Source of the DNA: Escherichia phage RB69
Sequence record: NC_004928.1
DNA length: 64,000 nucleotides
Direction: 5' to 3' (one strand)
Within the stretch, counting starts at the first letter, position 1. Each line of letters begins with the position of its first letter. Positions 1-59,306 of the stretch are shown here, one piece after another. The position numbers and the translations under genes are program-made. A model generated the notes under the pieces. The model was not told the origin of the DNA. It made no database searches and worked only from the letters and a program-made list of their open reading frames with translations.

Positions 1-2214
1 TTATTTGGCCGCTTCCACGGCCTTCATGAATTTAACGATTTGAGCGACCTGTTCTTTGGAAAGAGTACCACGTCGTCCCATGTATTCTGACACAATATGA
101 TAATTGGTTTCAAATTCAATAACCATTTTATCATCATTATCGTAAGCATTATCTTTAAGCTTATCGAAAATTTTAGCACACAATTCTAACTTCCTGTTCA
201 GGTCTCTGTTATCAGCACCTGTGAATCGATTCCATCCCCAGCGATTATTTACTGTTGAGAGTTTTGCAAAGTCTTTACTGATTTCTTTGTTCTTAGAGCT
301 AAAATATTTACTAAGGAAATTAAGCTCTTCATTACGAGTAATATGATTCAAATAAGGCTGTGCTCTACGACTTGGTGATACATACTCATCATAATCCACT
401 TTATCAATTAGCGTAATATAGTCATTAATTGATTTTTCGAACAAACATTCTACTTCACCAAGTTTACGAACTTTCTTAACAATCTGCGGACGGACTACAG
501 TGAACTCTTTAATACCTGACAAATCGGCAATACGAGTCAAGAAATTAGAATCATAGTTCAACCAACCTTTATCTGCGTCAAGACATTCAGCGTTAGAACG
601 ATTACGAATTACAACATAACCTTGAATCTCATCAGCTTTACCGGCCGGAATAAAGAGATCTTCTGATACCCAAACATCGTTTTCATTCTTAAAGAACCGA
701 TGAGCACTTGGGGATTTAGGACGAGGCTGCGATGAACGTTCTTTAACTTCAATCCATGGTTTAACTAATGCAAGAATTTCAGAGGTCTTATAAAATTTAA
801 GGCTATCACCAGCGAAAATAACCTTTAATCGTTCCAGAAGTTTCATTGCAACTTCATCTTCCGGGTTAATGAATAATACGCTACTACCCCGTCCGGAAGG
901 AACCTTATCAACGAGTGTTGATGCATCTGTGGAAGTCAAAGCATCGTTCAGAGCACGCATCATTGGTACGCGGCCTTTCACATCGTCAATAACAATATCA
1001 ATATGCTTACGACTAATACCTAGCAGGCTATTAATTGAAATAGTTGCAGACGAGCTTCCGCTTTCACGAATACGACGAAGACGTGGGTCTGAAACGATAT
1101 CATATACAACGCCAAGGTTGCACCATTCAGGTCCCATTTTAAAACGTTTGTACAACTCAGAATAAGTTAGCTGTTCTTTAGAATATTTCAGTGATTCAAT
1201 ATTAGAACCAGCTTTTTCCATGTATTTACGAGCAGAGTAACCAAGAGAATCTATTTCACGGAATACATGACGTGGATATTCACAATCAATCCATTTCTTA
1301 GAATCTTCAGCAAATAATTTTGCATCAATTTCTGCAACACGTTTATGGATATTTGCTACTGTACGTTTATCAAATGACAATGCTTCACGAGACGGGGCTA
1401 CATCTAGTTCACCCATAGGGAATTTAATATAAGCTGTAGTGCATCGCGTCATCATCCATGTTTGTTCTTTAATAACACTTCCGATTGGATATACAATACC
1501 ACCATAAACAGCCATGATATTACCACGTTCACCCCATGGAGCTTCCTTGGCTAAATAAACATCATCGAATTCAGGGAAGTATTTGATATCTTTAACACCA
1601 CGAACTTCTGCAATATCGCCGAGAGGACGCATAACATAAGCAATTTCGGATGCGAACTTTTCAAAATCTTCTGGGTTAACAGGCACAACTACTTCAACGC
1701 CGGTCCGGTCATCAGGACCCATCTTATCTACAAAGGTCGGCTTAATTTGTGGACCTGTGTCATCTTGGTAGATTACGTAACCACGAACTTCACCATTATG
1801 ATAAGAAGTAATGTTAAACGTATCAGTATATGCTAATGGAGCTTTAGAACCGAGCCCGAATCCACCAATGAAATCGTTACTCGATGTTTTAGTTGAAGCA
1901 AAATATGAGTTATAAATTCCTGGCTCTTCGTCATTACCTCGAATGGTGAAATCGCTCATACCCGGTCCAAAATCACGAACTACAAAACGTGGGTCTAAAC
2001 GACCTGGAGCCTGAACAATAAACTTATCAGTGCAACCGTTAAGAATTTGTCCATCGATACAGTTTGTAATTAATTCACGTACACAAGCCAATTCTTTGTT
2101 TGTATAAAGGTCATTAGACAAAATCTTATAAACTTTGCTATTGCCTTGAATAGTGAATGCTGTGCTCTTACCGCCTGAACCAATAATCGTTTCTTTAGCC
2201 GTTTCGATAATCAT
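1..2214 (-). CDS. rIIA: rIIA membrane-associated rapid-lysis/exclusion-protection protein
   Basis: 737-aa ORF, stop TAA at 1-3; size and position as T4 rIIA; ATPase-like glycine-rich motifs near the N-terminus. Confidence 0.85.
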   Translation of the reverse strand: MIIETAKETIIGSGGKSTAFTIQGNSKVYKILSNDLYTNKELACVRELITNCIDGQILNGCTDKFIVQAPGRLDPRFVVRDFGPGMSDFTIRGNDEEPGIYNSYFASTKTSSNDFIGGFGLGSKAPLAYTDTFNITSYHNGEVRGYVIYQDDTGPQIKPTFVDKMGPDDRTGVEVVVPVNPEDFEKFASEIAYVMRPLGDIAEVRGVKDIKYFPEFDDVYLAKEAPWGERGNIMAVYGGIVYPIGSVIKEQTWMMTRCTTAYIKFPMGELDVAPSREALSFDKRTVANIHKRVAEIDAKLFAEDSKKWIDCEYPRHVFREIDSLGYSARKYMEKAGSNIESLKYSKEQLTYSELYKRFKMGPEWCNLGVVYDIVSDPRLRRIRESGSSSATISINSLLGISRKHIDIVIDDVKGRVPMMRALNDALTSTDASTLVDKVPSGRGSSVLFINPEDEVAMKLLERLKVIFAGDSLKFYKTSEILALVKPWIEVKERSSQPRPKSPSAHRFFKNENDVWVSEDLFIPAGKADEIQGYVVIRNRSNAECLDADKGWLNYDSNFLTRIADLSGIKEFTVVRPQIVKKVRKLGEVECLFEKSINDYITLIDKVDYDEYVSPSRRAQPYLNHITRNEELNFLSKYFSSKNKEISKDFAKLSTVNNRWGWNRFTGADNRDLNRKLELCAKIFDKLKDNAYDNDDKMVIEFETNYHIVSEYMGRRGTLSKEQVAQIVKFMKAVEAAK

Positions 2215-2226
2215 GTTTTTCTCTCA

Positions 2227-2427
2227 TCACAAGTTACGTTTAAAAATTTCTGCCACTTCGAGAAGTTCTTCTTTAGTAGCTGTGTCGGTTTGTATTTTAT
2301 ATCGAATTTCTTTAAAGCGTTCTTTAAAGGACTCTGCTGATTCGATATCAAAAAATCTTTGGATAAGCCGGAATTCCCGGAGCACTGCTTTATCAAAAAG
2401 TTCCAAGTCCACGTTATATGTTCTCAT
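2227..2427 (-). CDS. rIIA.1: rIIA.1-like small protein
   Basis: 66-aa ORF immediately upstream of rIIA, as in T4. Confidence 0.55.
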   Translation of the reverse strand: MRTYNVDLELFDKAVLREFRLIQRFFDIESAESFKERFKEIRYKIQTDTATKEELLEVAEIFKRNL

Positions 2428-3664: not shown

Positions 3665-5483
3665 AGGACATCCATTCTTTACGAAGTTCTGAATCATCAC
3701 CCATCAACATTTCAAAGAGTTCTTTCCAATTTTCAGGAAGTTTAACTACGTCGTACACAGGGTTCTGAATCATTTTACGATATTCTGACTTTTCAAGGGA
3801 GCCTAATCCCTTGATGTATCGAATACTATGCTTAGGCAGTGTATCTTTAGCTTCTTCATACTCAGCTACAGTATAAAACCATTTTTGAGTTTTGCCAATT
3901 TGTGCAATAATTACAGGCGTTTTAACAAAGCGAATACGTCCTTGTTCAAACAATTCAGGCCAATTACTAAAGAAAGCAAGCAAAGCCGGATAAATACTTC
4001 CAAGGCCGTCATGATCGGCATCGGTCATAATTGCAATATTACGATAGTTCGTATTCTCTGCCTTTTCACCAAGAATAAGACCTGTGATAGCACAGATATC
4101 AAAGAGCTCTTTGTTCTTCATCATATCAGCATATGACATACCCCAGCTATTCATCACCTTACCACGTAATGGGAATCCGCCGTGTAGTTCACGGTCACGA
4201 ACATCAATGAGATATCCAATTGCCGAATCACCTTCTGTTAAGAACAATGTCGTATCTGCATCTTTACCGCATTGGTTAGCTTTAATATGCTTATGAACCT
4301 TAGCTTTAGTTGCCTTTTTAGCTGCTTTAGTTTCTGCAGCCTTTTCTGCTGCCAATTTACGAGCTAATGCTGCTTCAACAATAGGCATAATCAAGGCTTC
4401 GTTTTTAAGAAGTGCCTGAGCAATTTTCTTAGCATCTAATTGGATATGATTACGAATATCACCATACGTTGACGTTAAACGTTCTTTAGTCTGAGAATCA
4501 AAACGCATGTTGCTCATATCTCTAATAAACATCAACATTGTGAGACATTCTTTAACACGAGCTTTAGTGACTTCAATACCCTTATATTTCTTTTTAATAC
4601 CAGGCAAAAGATGTTCGCAGATATCATCCATTACACATTCAACATGATGACCACCATTTTTAGTATGGATGTTATTCACATAAGTTAAATGACGGAAGCC
4701 ATCTGGTGATGTTGTGAATGCTATAGAGACTTTATCATTTTCTTGAATGATGTTATCTTCGCCAAATTGTTTAGCAAATCGTTTAAAATTACCATCAACC
4801 TTTTTACCATTAAATGTGAACTTGATATCAGGATAAACGACTGCCAATGTTTGAAGTCGGTCTAAAGTAATATCTAAATAAATTTGAGATAAATTATGCT
4901 CTTCAAATGAAGTGAAATCAGGAGTGAAGATTACTTTAGTTCCTTTACCTTTAGATTTCTTAGAAGACCATGATTTGTTTTCCATTCCGTTTGAACAGTT
5001 AACAGTGATTTCATTTTCGCCATCTGACGTGATGCCTGTAAACAACGTAGAGAAGATATTAGTTAAACTACTCCCGACGCCGTTCATACCACCGGTCTTG
5101 CGTTCAGAGTCATCGCCAAAGTTACCACCAGCCTTTGGAATAGTCCAGGCTGCTACAGGCCCAGGAATTTGTTCACCCGTTTGGTCGGTAACTAAACCTT
5201 GAGGAATACCACGTCCGTTATCTTCCACCGAAACTTGATTATTTTTAATTTGCACATCAATTTTATTTGCAAACTTAAATGATGTACGAATAGCTTCATC
5301 AACCGAGTTGTCAATAATCTCATCGATTAATTTAACCAGACCAAGGAACATTTCAACTGGTGAATAATTACCAACCAAAAACGGCTCGTGGGCTTCTTTA
5401 GCAGAAAGAACCAATATACATACCATACGGTTTCTTAATAATGGTTCTACATCTGACAATACCCTAATTTCATTTTTAATCAT
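3663..5483 (-). CDS. 39: DNA topoisomerase II large (ATPase) subunit, genes 39 and 60 fused
   Basis: 606-aa ORF, GyrB-like ATPase; length equals T4 gp39 plus gp60, so no split gene 60. Confidence 0.85.
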   Translation of the reverse strand: MIKNEIRVLSDVEPLLRNRMVCILVLSAKEAHEPFLVGNYSPVEMFLGLVKLIDEIIDNSVDEAIRTSFKFANKIDVQIKNNQVSVEDNGRGIPQGLVTDQTGEQIPGPVAAWTIPKAGGNFGDDSERKTGGMNGVGSSLTNIFSTLFTGITSDGENEITVNCSNGMENKSWSSKKSKGKGTKVIFTPDFTSFEEHNLSQIYLDITLDRLQTLAVVYPDIKFTFNGKKVDGNFKRFAKQFGEDNIIQENDKVSIAFTTSPDGFRHLTYVNNIHTKNGGHHVECVMDDICEHLLPGIKKKYKGIEVTKARVKECLTMLMFIRDMSNMRFDSQTKERLTSTYGDIRNHIQLDAKKIAQALLKNEALIMPIVEAALARKLAAEKAAETKAAKKATKAKVHKHIKANQCGKDADTTLFLTEGDSAIGYLIDVRDRELHGGFPLRGKVMNSWGMSYADMMKNKELFDICAITGLILGEKAENTNYRNIAIMTDADHDGLGSIYPALLAFFSNWPELFEQGRIRFVKTPVIIAQIGKTQKWFYTVAEYEEAKDTLPKHSIRYIKGLGSLEKSEYRKMIQNPVYDVVKLPENWKELFEMLMGDDSELRKEWMS

Positions 5484-15216: not shown

Positions 15217-15247
15217 AATTAACTCCTTTGTTGTTTAATTACAGGTG

Positions 15248-15255
15248 TATTTATA
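15248..15255 (-). promoter_or_regulatory. T4 late promoter TATAAATA upstream of soc
   Basis: exact TATAAATA on the minus strand about 30 nt upstream of the soc ATG. Confidence 0.6.
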
Positions 15256-15450
15256 TCAATAATCGTCGTAGAAATCACTCAAAACATCGTATAGCTCTTT
15301 CTCATTATTGCAGATTAGCGACTTAATTGCGTCAGGGTGAGACTCCAGTGCACAAAGCTATATTGGCCGCGTGATGAGAATGTTTCTCAGATTCATATCA
15401 TCATTAGGGATGGCAATAACCAATCGGGTCTTTCTCGTAAAGGTCGTTCA

Positions 15451-15972
15451 TTAGTAACCTCGGTCTTGGCGAGCGAAGTTTTCAGCATTCTTCAGGTAAT
15501 ACAGTTTGAAGATTTCTTCAGCAGTGAGTCCAAGACCCTGGAACATATTCAGAACAAAGTGCAGAATATCAATCATTTCGAATTTAATTTCGAGCTGGTC
15601 TTCAGGAGACAGTTCATCGATACGACGATTTCGATATTCAGCATGTTGTGCCTTCCACGGCTTCCACACAGAAGAGGCAGCTTTCTCGCCGTTGCTCATA
15701 CCGCCAAGTGAAGTCAGCAGTTCACGAAATTCATCATCAATATAATCTTTCTGATTACGCAACCAATCAACAACATCGCCAGCAGTAGCCAATTCATCAG
15801 GATGTTTGTTATGTTCAGGCTTGTCATTTGCTAAGCGAACCTGTAAAGATTTCTGCATATCAAGCATTACCTGCAGTGGGTCTTTATCTTCGTGAATCAG
15901 AGCATTAAAATAAGCTTCTTCTGCTTTATCAACACCAGAAATAAGTTGTGAACATTCGTTAAAGTGTGCCAT
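15451..15972 (-). CDS. 56: dCTP pyrophosphatase gp56 (MazG-like)
   Basis: ORF track extends to 15987 from a TTG; the ATG start at MAHFNEC matches the T4 gp56 N-terminus. Confidence 0.85.
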   Translation of the reverse strand: MAHFNECSQLISGVDKAEEAYFNALIHEDKDPLQVMLDMQKSLQVRLANDKPEHNKHPDELATAGDVVDWLRNQKDYIDDEFRELLTSLGGMSNGEKAASSVWKPWKAQHAEYRNRRIDELSPEDQLEIKFEMIDILHFVLNMFQGLGLTAEEIFKLYYLKNAENFARQDRGY

Positions 15973-16060
15973 TATTTTTCCTTTCAATTCAGTATAAGAG
16001 AGTTAATTCTAACATTAATTTTATAAAGCGTAATAAATAATAGGTAACTAAGGAGATATT

Positions 16061-16258
16061 ATGTTTAAACTTCCATCGTTAATCAACGCTATTAAAGGCA
16101 ATAAAAAGAAAACTGCTATCGCTGCAATAGTTGTAGGTGGTATTATTTCATGGAACTTCGGGATTGCACCATTGTTAGTTGCCCATGGTATTATAGTTCC
16201 TTCTGTTCCATTGGATACTGTTGTTGACCTAGCTTTTGCTGTTATAGGGCTTGTTTAA
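16061..16258 (+). CDS. small hydrophobic membrane protein, the only convincing plus-strand gene
   Basis: 65 aa; strong AAGGAG site 7 nt upstream; convergent with gene 61. Confidence 0.45.
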   Translation: MFKLPSLINAIKGNKKKTAIAAIVVGGIISWNFGIAPLLVAHGIIVPSVPLDTVVDLAFAVIGLV

Positions 16259-17277
16259 ATCTTCGAATAACGAGATAATCTCATTTTAGCATGCAACCCA
16301 CTTGAAATATTCTGTTTCATATATTCTAAAATTTCTTGTGGTGTTGCATTTTCTTTCATTACCATATCATTCACATCCTTTGAACTCCATGGAGCTCGGT
16401 CCCAGAACATGACACGTTCGCCTGCATCAACTAATCGCTTCATGCGAGCTATAGTATCCGGATGCCTAGGTTCATTATCCATTACCCATACCCGACGTTC
16501 TTTAAATGGTACCACATCTAAATCTATCGAGCCGCCTGTAATAGCGATTGCATTAGGTATGAATAAACTATCAATAGGGCCTTCCATTACCCAGACGTCT
16601 CCTTCCTTAACACGTTCAACACCATAAATTTTTGTTGCAGACTCAAACGCTTTAATAGTGATATATTTCTGAGGAGCATCTTTACGAAGTGCACGTCCTT
16701 GGAATGACTCGGCCTTCCCGTCTTTATTAAAAATAGGAATCACTAAACGTGGTTCGGGAATCTCTTTCTTATACGTACCAGGTTGAATCTTGTTGACCAA
16801 TTTGGGCCATTCTAATGTGAACCATAATCTGTTCCATGATTCTTTAGGAATACACCGAGACTTAACATATTTCACAATAGGATGCTCTTCAGGCAACTTG
16901 TCCAGACGAGAACAAGACGGCAAAGAATTTATAGTCTTTTTCTCTGGCTCTGGCTTAGCTTCAGGAACCTTTTCAATCTTTGGTTCCATTCTAGCTTTTT
17001 CTTTACGAACTTCCATTAGATATTCGCGATAAAGCTCTTCATCATACTCCTTTAAGTATCCGGAAATTGTATTGTGGTATTGACAGTTATAGCAATGTAC
17101 ATTACCAGGAGTACCGCCATAATACCAACCGCGAGCTTTCATTGCATCTGTCTGGGAGTCGCCACAAACTGGACAACGAAACGTTAATTTAAATGTGCTT
17201 GAATTATTGATTTGTCTAAAACGAGGGAGGTGAGAAAACGCACGATAAGCAAATTCATTATCTATCCATTCAGCCAT
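16255..17277 (-). CDS. 61: DNA primase gp61
   Basis: 340 aa; zinc ribbon CPVCGD...CYNC; matches T4 gp61. Confidence 0.9.
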   Translation of the reverse strand: MAEWIDNEFAYRAFSHLPRFRQINNSSTFKLTFRCPVCGDSQTDAMKARGWYYGGTPGNVHCYNCQYHNTISGYLKEYDEELYREYLMEVRKEKARMEPKIEKVPEAKPEPEKKTINSLPSCSRLDKLPEEHPIVKYVKSRCIPKESWNRLWFTLEWPKLVNKIQPGTYKKEIPEPRLVIPIFNKDGKAESFQGRALRKDAPQKYITIKAFESATKIYGVERVKEGDVWVMEGPIDSLFIPNAIAITGGSIDLDVVPFKERRVWVMDNEPRHPDTIARMKRLVDAGERVMFWDRAPWSSKDVNDMVMKENATPQEILEYMKQNISSGLHAKMRLSRYSKI

Positions 17278-17316
17278 AGTATTCTCCAGAGGCCTTATTA
17301 ATTTAAGGCCATCATA

Positions 17317-17595
17317 TCACAACTTATTAATATTTACTTTAATTCGCTTTCTTTTCTTGGAAGGAATTTGTTCTGGACCTTTATTTACGACTGCACCTGT
17401 AGTTGTTCCTGATGCAATAGCTTGAGGACTGCCGCCTGAATCACCAGCAACCATATCCTCAAATAAAGGGAGTTCTTTAAATATTTCTTTCTGTTGTTCT
17501 TCTGTAATGTTATAGCGTGAAGCTACAGCACTCCAGGCGGACATCATTGAGGCCATTCCATTAAGACCTGGAACAGTGCTCATCATTCGCTTCAT
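17317..17595 (-). CDS. hypothetical protein
   Basis: 92-aa ORF. Confidence 0.4.
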   Translation of the reverse strand: MKRMMSTVPGLNGMASMMSAWSAVASRYNITEEQQKEIFKELPLFEDMVAGDSGGSPQAIASGTTTGAVVNKGPEQIPSKKRKRIKVNINKL

Positions 17596-17810
17596 TGAAC
17601 GAACTGAAGCATGAAAAGGTGTATAAGCCGCTTCTCTTCAGGAGTGGAAGGACGTTTAAGAACACTTCCACGTTCATCGATGATTTTGGCTTCGTATGCT
17701 TTCCATTCGGTAAAAGGTTTTTGCATTAGTCGAATAAACTTATATGCATAAACAGAATCTATTGCAGTGTTAATAATACCCATAGGTACCTCCTGAGTAT
17801 ATTTAATCAA
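17592..17810 (-). CDS. hypothetical protein
   Basis: 72-aa ORF. Confidence 0.4.
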   Translation of the reverse strand: MIKYTQEVPMGIINTAIDSVYAYKFIRLMQKPFTEWKAYEAKIIDERGSVLKRPSTPEEKRLIHLFMLQFVQ

Positions 17811-18000
17811 TTACAAAGATTGCTTTGTCACCATTTATATCTGTGACTTCATATGTGGTGCCTTCATACTGTGGAATATTCCAAATTACACCGTCATTAG
17901 CTTTTACGCTAATATGGCATTGGTGTTTTGAAACAACTTCATAATCTTCAAAACTTGTAAAAACACTAATTTTAGAACCAGTGCAAATTGCAGTAGTCAT
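17803..18000 (-). CDS. hypothetical protein
   Basis: 65-aa ORF. Confidence 0.4.
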   Translation of the reverse strand: MTTAICTGSKISVFTSFEDYEVVSKHQCHISVKANDGVIWNIPQYEGTTYEVTDINGDKAIFVID

Positions 18001-47737: not shown

Positions 47738-47768
47738 CCCTTACCTTAAATAGATAAGGGTATTTATA
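47738..47768 (-). promoter_or_regulatory. late promoter TATAAATA (47761-47768) with hairpin (47738-47760) covering the gene 49 ribosome-binding site
   Basis: minus strand TATAAATAcccttatctatttaaggtaagggtttatcATG; ccctta/taaggg stem includes the AAGG site. Confidence 0.55.
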
Positions 47769-58484: not shown

Positions 58485-58697
58485 TTAATTTTGGCCAGTA
58501 TTTATTTTTCGCCTTTGGACGGCCTTAACATCTGCGAGGTATTTTTCCAGCTTACGCTTACGAGTATAATCTGCTTTAGAACCAGTTTGACGGATATCCT
58601 CATTTAAATGAGAAATAGAATGTCCTAATTCTCTTCGGATTTCATCCAATTGGGTTACAGTAAGATTACGAAGTTGTCTTTCGTTTAATTGCTGCAT
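58485..58697 (-). CDS. hypothetical protein
   Basis: 70-aa ORF. Confidence 0.4.
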
Positions 58698-58724
58698 ATA
58701 TACCTCTTGGTTAGATATTAGTAT

Positions 58725-59306
58725 TTATAACAACCCTGTCAAATCGTTCCAATGCTTCCGGCATAATGACACGTATCTATCGGTATCACCAATTTCAATT
58801 TGACTGCCATCTGTAATTGGAAGTCCGTCTTCCGTGACTCTAGCTACCATTGTGGCCTTTTTACCGCAATGACAGACACCTTTAAGTTCAACAAGCTTAT
58901 CGGCAATAGCCATTAATGCTTGAGAACCTTCAAATAGATTACCTTTAAAATCTGTTCGTAGTCCGTATGCCATTACCGGCACATTGTATACGTCAACAAT
59001 ACGACTAAGTTGATACACCTTTTCAGTAGTTAAGAACTGAGCTTCGTCAACAAATACACAGTGAATATCCTTTTGTGCTGCAGCCCATTTATAGAATTCA
59101 AAGATATCCATGTCTTTTGTAATTATATTGGCGTCCTGACGAATACCAATACGAGAGACTATTTCACCTTTTGAATCGCGAGTATCAATAGCCGGTTTAA
59201 GAACTAATACACCCATGCCACGTTCTTTATAGTTATGTGCGGCAGTAAGTAATGAAGCAGACTTACCAGCGTTCATAGCGGCATATGTAAAAATTAAACT
59301 AGCCAT
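58725..59306 (-). CDS. tk: thymidine kinase
   Basis: 193 aa; P-loop AMNAGKS and C-terminal zinc-ribbon cysteines. Confidence 0.9.
   Translation of the reverse strand: MASLIFTYAAMNAGKSASLLTAAHNYKERGMGVLVLKPAIDTRDSKGEIVSRIGIRQDANIITKDMDIFEFYKWAAAQKDIHCVFVDEAQFLTTEKVYQLSRIVDVYNVPVMAYGLRTDFKGNLFEGSQALMAIADKLVELKGVCHCGKKATMVARVTEDGLPITDGSQIEIGDTDRYVSLCRKHWNDLTGLL

What the first reader, a model, noticed from the sequence alone, without database searches (positions are those of the whole stretch)
16061..16258. Single plus-strand membrane-protein gene convergent with the primase gene
This 65-aa hydrophobic ORF is the only plus-strand frame with a strong ribosome-binding site (AAGGAG) and a clean intergenic position. 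Its 3-prime end abuts the 3-prime end of gene 61. The upstream sequence has late-promoter-like motifs (TATAAAG and TAATAAATA) but no exact TATAAATA.
Basis: seen in the sequence. Interest (0 to 1): 0.35.

Follow-up and report, generated by a model that had tools for sequence, protein, structure and literature searches.

The report
Small late membrane-protein gene beside primase
This is a real, already catalogued but uncharacterised 65-residue membrane-protein gene (identical to RB69ORF029w), apparently read late in infection from the opposite strand to its neighbours; it is kept next to the primase gene in T4-like phages yet missing from phage T4's reference annotation.

Summary
ORF 16061..16258 (+) has a strong ribosome-binding site. 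It is the only plus-strand ORF with such a site in DNA not covered by minus-strand ORFs, and its stop overlaps the stop of primase gene 61.

It is a genuine gene:
- The protein is identical to RB69ORF029w and matches PHROG 2024 over its full length (E 3e-27).
- It is under purifying selection (dN/dS about 0.1-0.3).
- It keeps the same convergent position beside gene 61 in eight Tevenvirinae genera. It is absent from four outgroup genera, where no convergent ORF follows gene 61.

Phage T4 has a 66-aa ortholog that its reference annotation omits.

AATAAATA at 16032-16039 is the recognised A(-13) variant of the T4 late promoter. A [A/C/G]ATAAATA or ATTAAATA element sits 12-22 nt before the start codon in every lineage examined. 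ATAAATA itself is four-fold depleted in the window.

The protein is predicted to be a single-pass inner-membrane protein with a basic N-terminus inside the cell. It has an invariant W-N-[F/Y] plus Pro motif and a conserved loop facing the periplasm.

Its function is unknown, and the "holin" labels in databases are unsupported. This is an ordinary gene, already known as a hypothetical protein, and of modest interest.

The parts
16032..16039 (+). Predicted gp55-type late promoter, AATAAATA (A at -13 instead of T). The predicted transcript start is near 16045-16046.
   Evidence: Sequence. In T4, 9 of the 50 listed late promoters have A(-13) (PMC2988020), and T(-13) is poorly conserved in RB69 and relatives (PMC1524935). 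ATAAATA occurs 7 times in the window against 28.7 +/- 5.2 expected. Five of those 7 lie 21-31 nt before an SD plus ATG. The element is conserved as [A/C/G]ATAAATA or ATTAAATA 12-22 nt before the ATG in all lineages, within otherwise unalignable upstream DNA.
16050..16055 (+). Shine-Dalgarno sequence AAGGAG, 5 nt before the ATG
   Evidence: AGGAGG or AAGGAG is present before the ATG in nearly every ortholog examined; Kanagawavirus has GGAGG and Dhakavirus NC-G only GGAG.
16061..16258 (+). Coding sequence for a 65-aa small membrane protein, identical to RB69ORF029w and a member of PHROG 2024. The end coordinate includes the stop codon.
   Evidence: phrog_2024, E 2.9e-27, profile 1-65 of 65; identical to NP_861719.1; dN/dS 0.10-0.16 within Mosigvirus; AF2 pLDDT 84.8; helices 3-11, 15-41, 51-62; hydropathy and charge.
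16255..16258 (.). Four-nucleotide tail-to-tail overlap (TTAA) of the ORF stop and the gene 61 stop. There is no spacer or terminator between the convergent genes.
   Evidence: no terminator-like site in 15300-18000. The same overlap occurs in T4, Karamvirus, Kanagawavirus, Gelderlandvirus, and Gaprivervirus through its second paralog.
16255..17277 (-). Gene 61 DNA primase. It is the convergent neighbour and would be covered in antisense by read-through of the late transcript.
   Evidence: (phrog_47, E 3e-102).
15451..15972 (-). Gene 56 dCTPase, the divergent upstream neighbour
16006..16030 (-). Context: putative MotA-type middle promoter for gene 56. It has a MotA-box-like CGCTTTA (16030..16024), a 12-nt spacer and a -10 TAGAAT (16011..16006). 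It lies back to back with the late promoter.
   Evidence: Sequence. The match to the MotA-box consensus is from my own knowledge and was not tested.

Best explanation
The ORF is a bona fide protein-coding gene, RB69ORF029w, of a small family confined to the subfamily Tevenvirinae.

Expression (inferred). The gene lies on the strand opposite to all early and middle genes. It is therefore expressed late, by gp55-programmed RNA polymerase starting at the A(-13) variant late promoter AATAAATA (16032-16039). The 5' leader is about 15 nt and carries a strong Shine-Dalgarno sequence.

Product (predicted). The 65-aa protein is a bitopic inner-membrane protein.
- An N-terminal amphipathic helix and a Lys cluster (KGNKKK) stay in the cytoplasm.
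- One transmembrane helix spans about residues 15-41. It carries an invariant mid-membrane W-N-[F/Y] and a Pro five residues after the Asn.
- A conserved [H/N]-G...P...[D/E] loop and a short amphipathic or hydrophobic C-terminal helix face the periplasmic side.

Mechanism (inferred, low confidence). Conservation is concentrated in the outer half of the transmembrane helix and in the periplasmic loop. I therefore infer that the protein self-associates or docks onto another membrane protein through the polar Asn/Pro face, and so adjusts an envelope process late in infection. Candidates are lysis timing, superinfection exclusion or membrane integrity.

Side effect (inferred). In this phage there is no terminator after the stop codon. 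The late transcript must therefore run antisense into primase gene 61, which may help shut down primase synthesis late.

Status of each step. Shown: the gene is real, conserved, syntenic and under purifying selection. Shown in sequence only: promoter and ribosome-binding-site motifs and their conservation. Inferred: late timing, topology, partner binding and the antisense effect.
For: Gene reality.
- phrog_2024 matches over the full length, and the protein is 100% identical to RB69ORF029w.
- tblastn finds 691 phage records.
- dN/dS is 0.10-0.16 in Mosigvirus, about 0.12-0.30 in most Tequatrovirus pairs and 0.25-0.47 in most Gaprivervirus pairs; a few near-identical pairs fall outside these ranges. 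pN is 0.35 against pS 0.78 for RB69 versus T4.
- No RNA family or unusual RNA fold is present.

Synteny.
- The gene is always convergent with gene 61, while the upstream neighbour varies: gene 56, dam, a mazG-like gene or a hypothetical gene.
- It is absent where no convergent ORF follows gene 61: in Slopekvirus and Krischvirus, where 61 directly abuts the dCTPase/dUTPase gene (56), and in Biquartavirus and Lazarusvirus, where other co-directional genes follow 61.

Late expression.
- AATAAATA is a documented late-promoter variant, and all early and middle T4 transcripts are counterclockwise (PMC2988020; PMC1524935).
- ATAAATA is depleted four-fold in the window, and 5 of its 7 copies precede genes.
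- The element is conserved across lineages.
- No sigma-70-like plus-strand promoter lies in 15973-16060.

Membrane topology.
- AF2 gives pLDDT 84.8 with a helix at 15-41.
- The N-terminal flank carries a net charge of +2 to +7 and the C-terminal flank -1 to -3.
- The second hydrophobic segment is weak in distant members.
- Invariant W, N, F/Y and P are seen in the alignments.

Read-through. No terminator-like site lies in 15300-18000.
Against: - No transcript, protein or phenotype data exist for any family member. No paper mentions it.
- In RB69, T4 and Gaprivervirus the segment 44-62 is as hydrophobic as the first one. A two-span hairpin topology is therefore not excluded.
- The promoter never has the consensus T at -13 in any lineage. 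The in vivo strength of such variants is unknown.
- Jiaodavirus and Dhakavirus have a stable hairpin between the ORF and primase. Antisense read-through is therefore not a conserved feature.
- Frameshifted or truncated copies exist. The gene is thus probably dispensable in the laboratory, or these are sequencing errors.
- The proposed functional role has no direct support.
Confidence: 0.6

Rival explanations
1. The conserved function is an RNA, not the protein. A late antisense transcript silences primase gene 61 (and the early read-through mRNA), and the ORF is incidental or merely protects the RNA from Rho.
For: The stop codons overlap with no terminator in RB69, T4, Karamvirus, Kanagawavirus, Gelderlandvirus and Gaprivervirus. 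T4 is known to transcribe both strands at several sites at different times (PMC2988020).
Against: Substitutions are strongly biased towards synonymous changes, and protein motifs are invariant across genera where the DNA is saturated. Jiaodavirus and Dhakavirus place a stable hairpin between the ORF and primase. Gaprivervirus CJ20 has a spacer of about 120 nt. Tandem protein paralogs exist.
Confidence: 0.1
2. It is a holin or other lysis protein, as a few database records label it.
For: It is small, hydrophobic and probably late-expressed. UniProt names the OE5505 ortholog 'Holin', and the EAWsc9 record says 'holin family protein'.
Against: No Pfam or NCBIfam holin model matches any of the 10 family members tested. 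The charged region is N-terminal and the C-terminus is hydrophobic, which is the reverse of typical holins. The neighbours are replication and nucleotide-metabolism genes, not an endolysin. T-even phages already have the holin gp t with antiholin RI (established knowledge).
Confidence: 0.07
3. It is a chance ORF or an annotation artefact in a non-coding spacer between genes 56 and 61 that holds only promoters.
For: An ORF of this length arises by chance in about 2% of random 286-nt stretches. The curated T4 and SP18 reference annotations do not call it.
Against: The full-length family is conserved across eight genera with a retained frame, SD and start. dN/dS is well below 1. AF2 gives a confident helical model.
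Confidence: 0.02
4. It is an early or middle gene expressed from a host-type promoter on the plus strand.
For: None specific. The intergenic region is AT-rich.
Against: No sigma-70-like plus-strand site lies in 15973-16060. [quoted passage not shown] The only conserved upstream element is the late-promoter core.
Confidence: 0.05

Closest known systems
RB69ORF029w (NP_861719.1) / PHROG 2024, 'hypothetical protein' of Mosigvirus, Tequatrovirus and related phages
   Same: The sequence is identical to RB69ORF029w. The profile match is full-length. Size, motif and position beside gene 61 are the same.
   Different: Nothing differs; this is that gene. The family has no assigned function, and the T4 member is missing from NC_000866 and AF158101.
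T4 late genes embedded in early regions and driven by variant TATAAATA promoters (for example soc and gene 49)
   Same: A short late-promoter core lies 21-31 nt before a strong SD and ATG. The A(-13) variant is documented.
   Different: This gene is on the opposite strand to its neighbours, and in all lineages examined it never has the consensus T(-13). Its transcription has not been mapped.
Small T-even envelope proteins (Imm, Sp, RI)
   Same: They are small proteins acting at the inner membrane or periplasm. Imm and Sp are encoded 2-3 kb away in the same window region.
   Different: There is no sequence similarity: tblastn finds no paralog in the window. Imm and Sp are early, minus-strand genes, and the architectures differ.
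Class II holins / pinholins
   Same: Length is about 65 aa, with one or two hydrophobic segments and late expression.
   Different: No holin model matches. The charge distribution is reversed. The gene is not in a lysis cassette.

Membership tests
PHROG 2024 / RB69ORF029w-like small membrane proteins | Significant full-length match to the family profile | tested here: met
   phrog_2024, E 2.9e-27, residues 1-65 on profile 1-65 of 65. 100% identity to RB69ORF029w.
PHROG 2024 / RB69ORF029w-like small membrane proteins | Conserved motif W-N-[F/Y]-x4-P ... [H/N]-G ... P ... [D/E], after a basic N-terminus and within or after a hydrophobic helix | tested here: met
   Alignments. W31, N32, F33, P37, G43, P47 and D56 are invariant or nearly so.
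PHROG 2024 / RB69ORF029w-like small membrane proteins | Position immediately downstream of, and convergent with, primase gene 61 | tested here: met
   Window. The same holds in Tequatro-, Gapriver-, Dhaka-, Karam-, Jiaoda-, Kanagawa- and Gelderlandvirus.
T4-type late gene (gp55/gp33/gp45-dependent) | TATAAATA-type element at -13 to -6, with no -35 element needed | tested here: met
   AATAAATA at 16032-16039 is the A(-13) variant found at 9 of 50 T4 sites. It is conserved in position across lineages. The core heptamer is four-fold depleted elsewhere in the window.
T4-type late gene (gp55/gp33/gp45-dependent) | Transcript 5' end about 6 nt after the element, appearing after replication starts and dependent on gene 55 | not testable with these tools
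   No transcriptome data are available, and no paper was found.
Holins | Match to a curated holin family model | tested here: not met
   Pfam and NCBIfam give no holin hit for 10 family members even at E up to 10. BFVD fold search returns only family members.
Holins | Hydrophilic, highly charged C-terminal tail after the last transmembrane domain | tested here: not met
   The C-terminus is hydrophobic (…LAFAVIGLV). The charge cluster is N-terminal.
Holins | Encoded with an endolysin or other lysis genes | tested here: not met
   The neighbours are dCTPase (56) and primase (61).
Cis-antisense RNA regulator of gene 61 | Transcript reads through into the convergent target gene in all family members | tested here: inconclusive
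   No terminator is present in the window, and the stops overlap in six genera. However, hairpins separate the genes in Jiaodavirus and Dhakavirus.

The most novel reading that the evidence does not exclude
A late-expressed small inner-membrane protein present in all eight Tevenvirinae genera sampled, overlooked in the T4 reference annotation and hence probably left out of annotation-based T4 screens, has a dedicated role at the periplasmic face of the membrane. That role could be a missing component of lysis-inhibition or lysis timing, late superinfection exclusion, or membrane-bound assembly. Its deliberately sub-consensus late promoter (never T at -13) would tune its dose and would also couple it to antisense shut-off of primase.
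Probability: 0.2. Interest if true: 0.55.

Novelty: already known. Interest (0 to 1): 0.3.

Why it matters
The gene exists in hundreds of annotated genomes as a hypothetical protein, so its existence is not new.

What is worth knowing is that the best-studied phage, T4, carries a conserved, selected 66-aa gene (17738..17938, plus strand) that its reference record omits. Screens designed on annotated coding sequences may never have tested it. CRISPRi-ART, for example, targeted 'all annotated CDSs' (PMC11879866).

The gene is specific to the subfamily. It is always placed tail to tail with the primase gene and always sits behind a non-consensus late promoter. That makes it a cheap and well-defined candidate for a knockout and localisation experiment.

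Tried and rejected
Searches that found nothing further.
- Pfam and NCBIfam gave no family for the ORF or for nine relatives.
- PDB sequence search gave nothing below E = 1.
- BFVD fold search returned only family members.
- An exhaustive profile search of 1.84 billion representative proteins gave only 8 hits at E < 1e-3, all 45-68 aa. They comprise known family members, truncated or error-ridden copies, and four distant relatives; two of those were traced by tblastn to T-even-type phages. There are no distant informative relatives.
- Rfam and RNA folding of the predicted transcript found no family and gave z = +0.64. A structured-RNA reading was rejected.
- The terminator scan of 15300-18000 found none.
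- tblastn for paralogs inside the window found none.

Literature.
- Searches for T4 ribosome profiling, unannotated ORFs, transcription-start mapping, gene names such as 61.-1 or dam.-1, RB69ORF029w and phrog_2024 found nothing about this gene.
- The HIDEN-SEQ and CRISPRi-ART papers do not mention it.
- Miller et al. 2003 (PMC150520) and the RB69 RefSeq record NC_004928 are not held. I therefore could not check whether the T4 late-promoter list includes the GATAAATA site.

Readings rejected. The 'holin' label fails three defining features. The chance-ORF reading is refuted by conservation and dN/dS.

Full report
**What is in the sequence**

The window is an RB69-like T-even phage of the genus Mosigvirus. 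The 1.9 kb around the finding is 97% identical to phages mobillu, AV110 and phage 55.

The ORF at 16061..16258 (+) starts at ATG and ends at TAA. It encodes MFKLPSLINAIKGNKKKTAIAAIVVGGIISWNFGIAPLLVAHGIIVPSVPLDTVVDLAFAVIGLV, 65 aa. That protein is 100% identical to RB69ORF029w, NP_861719.1.

The flanking genes are both on the minus strand. Gene 56 dCTPase lies at 15451..15972 and gene 61 primase at 16255..17277.

AAGGAG lies at 16050-16055, 5 nt before the ATG.

The ORF stop (16256-16258) and the primase stop (16257..16255) share the palindrome TTAA. The two genes therefore overlap tail to tail by 4 nt.

The ORF is the only plus-strand ORF of at least 50 aa not mostly overlapped by a minus-strand ORF. 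It is also the only plus-strand ATG-ORF of at least 20 aa with a Shine-Dalgarno sequence in DNA not covered by minus-strand ORFs. A random ORF of this length in 286 nt of this composition has P of about 0.02.

**It is a real gene**

- The protein matches PHROG 2024 end to end, at E 2.9e-27.
- tblastn finds it in 691 phage records.
- Nei-Gojobori comparisons give dN/dS of 0.10-0.16 within Mosigvirus, about 0.12-0.30 for most pairs within Tequatrovirus and 0.25-0.47 for most pairs within Gaprivervirus; a few near-identical pairs fall outside these ranges.
- Between RB69 and T4, synonymous sites are saturated (pS 0.78) while pN is 0.35.
- The predicted transcript has no unusual RNA fold (z +0.64) and no Rfam match.

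**Distribution and synteny**

Orthologs sit immediately downstream of, and convergent with, gene 61 in eight Tevenvirinae genera.

| Genus | Example |
|---|---|
| Mosigvirus | the window |
| Tequatrovirus | T4 |
| Gaprivervirus | CJ20, TH41, SP18 |
| Dhakavirus | NC-G |
| Karamvirus | CkP1 |
| Jiaodavirus | PKO111, KP179 |
| Kanagawavirus | KLB31 |
| Gelderlandvirus | Melville |

The upstream neighbour varies: gene 56, dam, a mazG-like gene or a hypothetical gene. The linkage is therefore to the 3' end of gene 61.

Four genera outside Tevenvirinae have no convergent ORF. In Slopekvirus (Miro) and Krischvirus (GEC-3S), gene 61 runs directly into the dCTPase/dUTPase gene (56). In Biquartavirus (Aeromonas 31) and Lazarusvirus (Acinetobacter Kimel), other co-directional genes follow gene 61.

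An exhaustive profile search of 1.84 billion representative proteins found only 8 hits at E < 1e-3, all 45-68 aa. They are known family members, truncated or error-ridden copies, and four distant relatives. tblastn traced two of those four to T-even-type phages. The gene thus appears to be an invention of the Tevenvirinae subfamily.

Some Gaprivervirus genomes carry two tandem paralogs, here called a and b. Dhakavirus NC-G has them in the order b-a, with b frameshifted.

T4 has a 66-aa ortholog that is 54% identical, at 17738..17938 (+) with AAGGAGG before its ATG. Neither NC_000866 nor AF158101 annotates anything between dam and gene 61. A Pyrodigal re-annotation of T4 does call it.

**Expression**

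Geiduschek and Kassavetis state that all T4 early and middle transcripts have one polarity, whereas late transcripts have either. They also report that of 50 listed late promoters, 32 are perfect TATAAATA and nine have A at -13 (PMC2988020). Nolan et al. found that T(-13) is poorly conserved in RB69 and other relatives (PMC1524935).

AATAAATA at 16032-16039 is therefore a recognised variant. It lies 21 nt before the ATG, which predicts a start near 16045 and a leader of about 15 nt.

Three observations make this more than a chance match.

- The heptamer ATAAATA occurs only 7 times on both strands of the 64-kb window, against 28.7 +/- 5.2 expected.
- Five of those seven lie 21-31 nt before a Shine-Dalgarno sequence and ATG. 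They include the genes for soc and a gp49-like protein.
- The upstream regions cannot be aligned between genera, yet each keeps the element.

| Lineage | Element | Distance to ATG |
|---|---|---|
| T4 | GATAAATA | 21 nt |
| dam-less Tequatrovirus | AATAAATA | 22 nt |
| Gaprivervirus | CATAAATA | 16 nt |
| Jiaodavirus PKO111 | AATAAATA | 18 nt |
| Jiaodavirus KP179 | CATAAATA | 12 nt |
| Kanagawavirus | CATAAATA | 15 nt |
| Dhakavirus | CATAAATA | before the b-a pair |
| Karamvirus, Gelderlandvirus | ATTAAATA | about 14-15 nt |

The first base is never the consensus T, which suggests a deliberately weak promoter. The review notes that the in vivo strength of variant promoters is unknown.

No sigma-70-like plus-strand promoter lies in the intergenic region. 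Late transcription is thus well supported in silico, but it is not shown.

**After the stop codon**

No terminator-like site exists on either strand between 15300 and 18000. A late transcript should therefore continue antisense through gene 61.

This is not universal. Jiaodavirus has a GGGGC-TTCG-GCCCC hairpin between the two genes, and Dhakavirus has an AGGGAG-GAAA-CTCCCT hairpin. CJ20 has a spacer of about 120 nt. I therefore treat antisense to primase as a likely side effect in RB69 and T4, not as the conserved function.

**The protein**

AlphaFold2 with an 18-sequence alignment gives pLDDT 84.8. It predicts helices at 3-11, 15-41 and 51-62, and a loop at 42-50.

The N-terminal flank is basic in every member, with a net charge of +2 to +7. 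The C-terminal part is neutral to acidic. By the positive-inside rule, the N-terminus is cytoplasmic.

Segment 44-62 is as hydrophobic as the first segment in RB69, T4 and Gaprivervirus paralog a. It is weak (Kyte-Doolittle 0.6-1.1) in most of the distant members and in paralog b. The conserved architecture is therefore one span plus an amphipathic C-terminal helix. A hairpin topology in the RB69/T4 clade is not excluded.

The invariant positions are a mid-membrane W-N-[F/Y], a Pro five residues after the Asn, [H/N]-G at the end of the helix, and P...[D/E] in the loop. These lie in the outer leaflet and on the periplasmic side. This is the basis for my inference that the protein binds itself or a partner there. 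That step is inference only.

**Comparison with known families**

No Pfam or NCBIfam model matches. There is no PDB relative. BFVD fold search finds only family members.

Two records call an ortholog 'holin'. The protein fails three defining features of holins:

- no holin model matches;
- the charge layout is reversed;
- the gene is not in a lysis cassette.

No paper mentions the gene. CRISPRi-ART libraries targeted annotated coding sequences only, so the T4 copy may not have been screened.

**Verdict**

The object is an already catalogued hypothetical gene of unknown function.

The added value is fourfold: the evidence that it is a late gene; its strict association with the 3' end of the primase gene across Tevenvirinae; its sub-consensus promoter; and its absence from the T4 reference annotation. 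Interest is modest.

Noticed in passing
L002 (T4 NC_000866) 3739..3939 = record 17738..17938 (+): The T4 reference records NC_000866 and AF158101 annotate nothing between dam and gene 61. A 66-aa ortholog with SD AAGGAGG and an upstream GATAAATA lies there. The SP18 RefSeq record has the same omission (L021 1459..1656).
   Followed up: yes
L005 (TH41) 2001..2198 and 2207..2407; L024 (NC-G) about 1288..1490 and 1483..1680: Gaprivervirus carries two tandem paralogs, a then b (45% identity over 42 aa), and the stop of b overlaps the primase stop. Dhakavirus has the order b then a, with b frameshifted in a T-run, CATAAATA in front of b, and the stop of b overlapping the ATG of a.
   Followed up: partly
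window 16006..16030 (-): A MotA-box-like CGCTTTA, a 12-nt spacer and TAGAAT lie about 27 nt upstream of the gene 56 ATG. They sit back to back with the plus-strand late promoter, so this is probably the middle promoter of gene 56. In T4 the gene 56 transcript primes oriA, according to the record's note.
   Followed up: no
window 15248..15255 (-), 47761..47768 (-), 58722..58729 (-), 58499..58506 (-): Late-promoter cores lie 24-31 nt before minus-strand genes: soc, a gp49-like endonuclease, a 70-aa ORF and a 100-aa ORF (the last with AATAAATA). Overall ATAAATA is four-fold depleted in the window. Two stray plus-strand copies, at 3990 and 62378, precede no SD-led ORF.
   Followed up: partly
window 17290..17311: A stable hairpin (AGGCCTTA...TAAGGCC; -12.3 kcal/mol, z -3.9) lies between the gene 61 start and the upstream gene, with no T-run on either side. 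It could be an RNA-stability or processing element, or the stop for antisense read-through. It gave a sub-threshold Rfam 'Histone3' hit, which is surely spurious.
   Followed up: partly
L017 (PKO111) about 2193..2212; L024 (NC-G) about 1681..1700: Jiaodavirus has a GGGGC-TTCG-GCCCC hairpin and Dhakavirus an AGGGAG-GAAA-CTCCCT hairpin inserted between the small ORF and the primase stop. Other genera have overlapping stops at this position.
   Followed up: partly
L020 (T4_ev240) 1411..1465: A 1-nt deletion in the A-run that encodes the KKK cluster frameshifts the ortholog in this T4-like record. Truncated or frameshifted copies also occur in metagenomic proteins P0068, P0071 and P0073. These reflect either dispensability or homopolymer sequencing errors.
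   Followed up: no
window 15217..15450: A 234-nt stretch between soc and gene 56 has no minus-strand ORF of at least 45 aa. Close relatives such as phage 55 carry two small minus-strand genes there, and megablast similarity to those relatives starts only at about 15449. The segment therefore appears specific to this phage.
   Followed up: no
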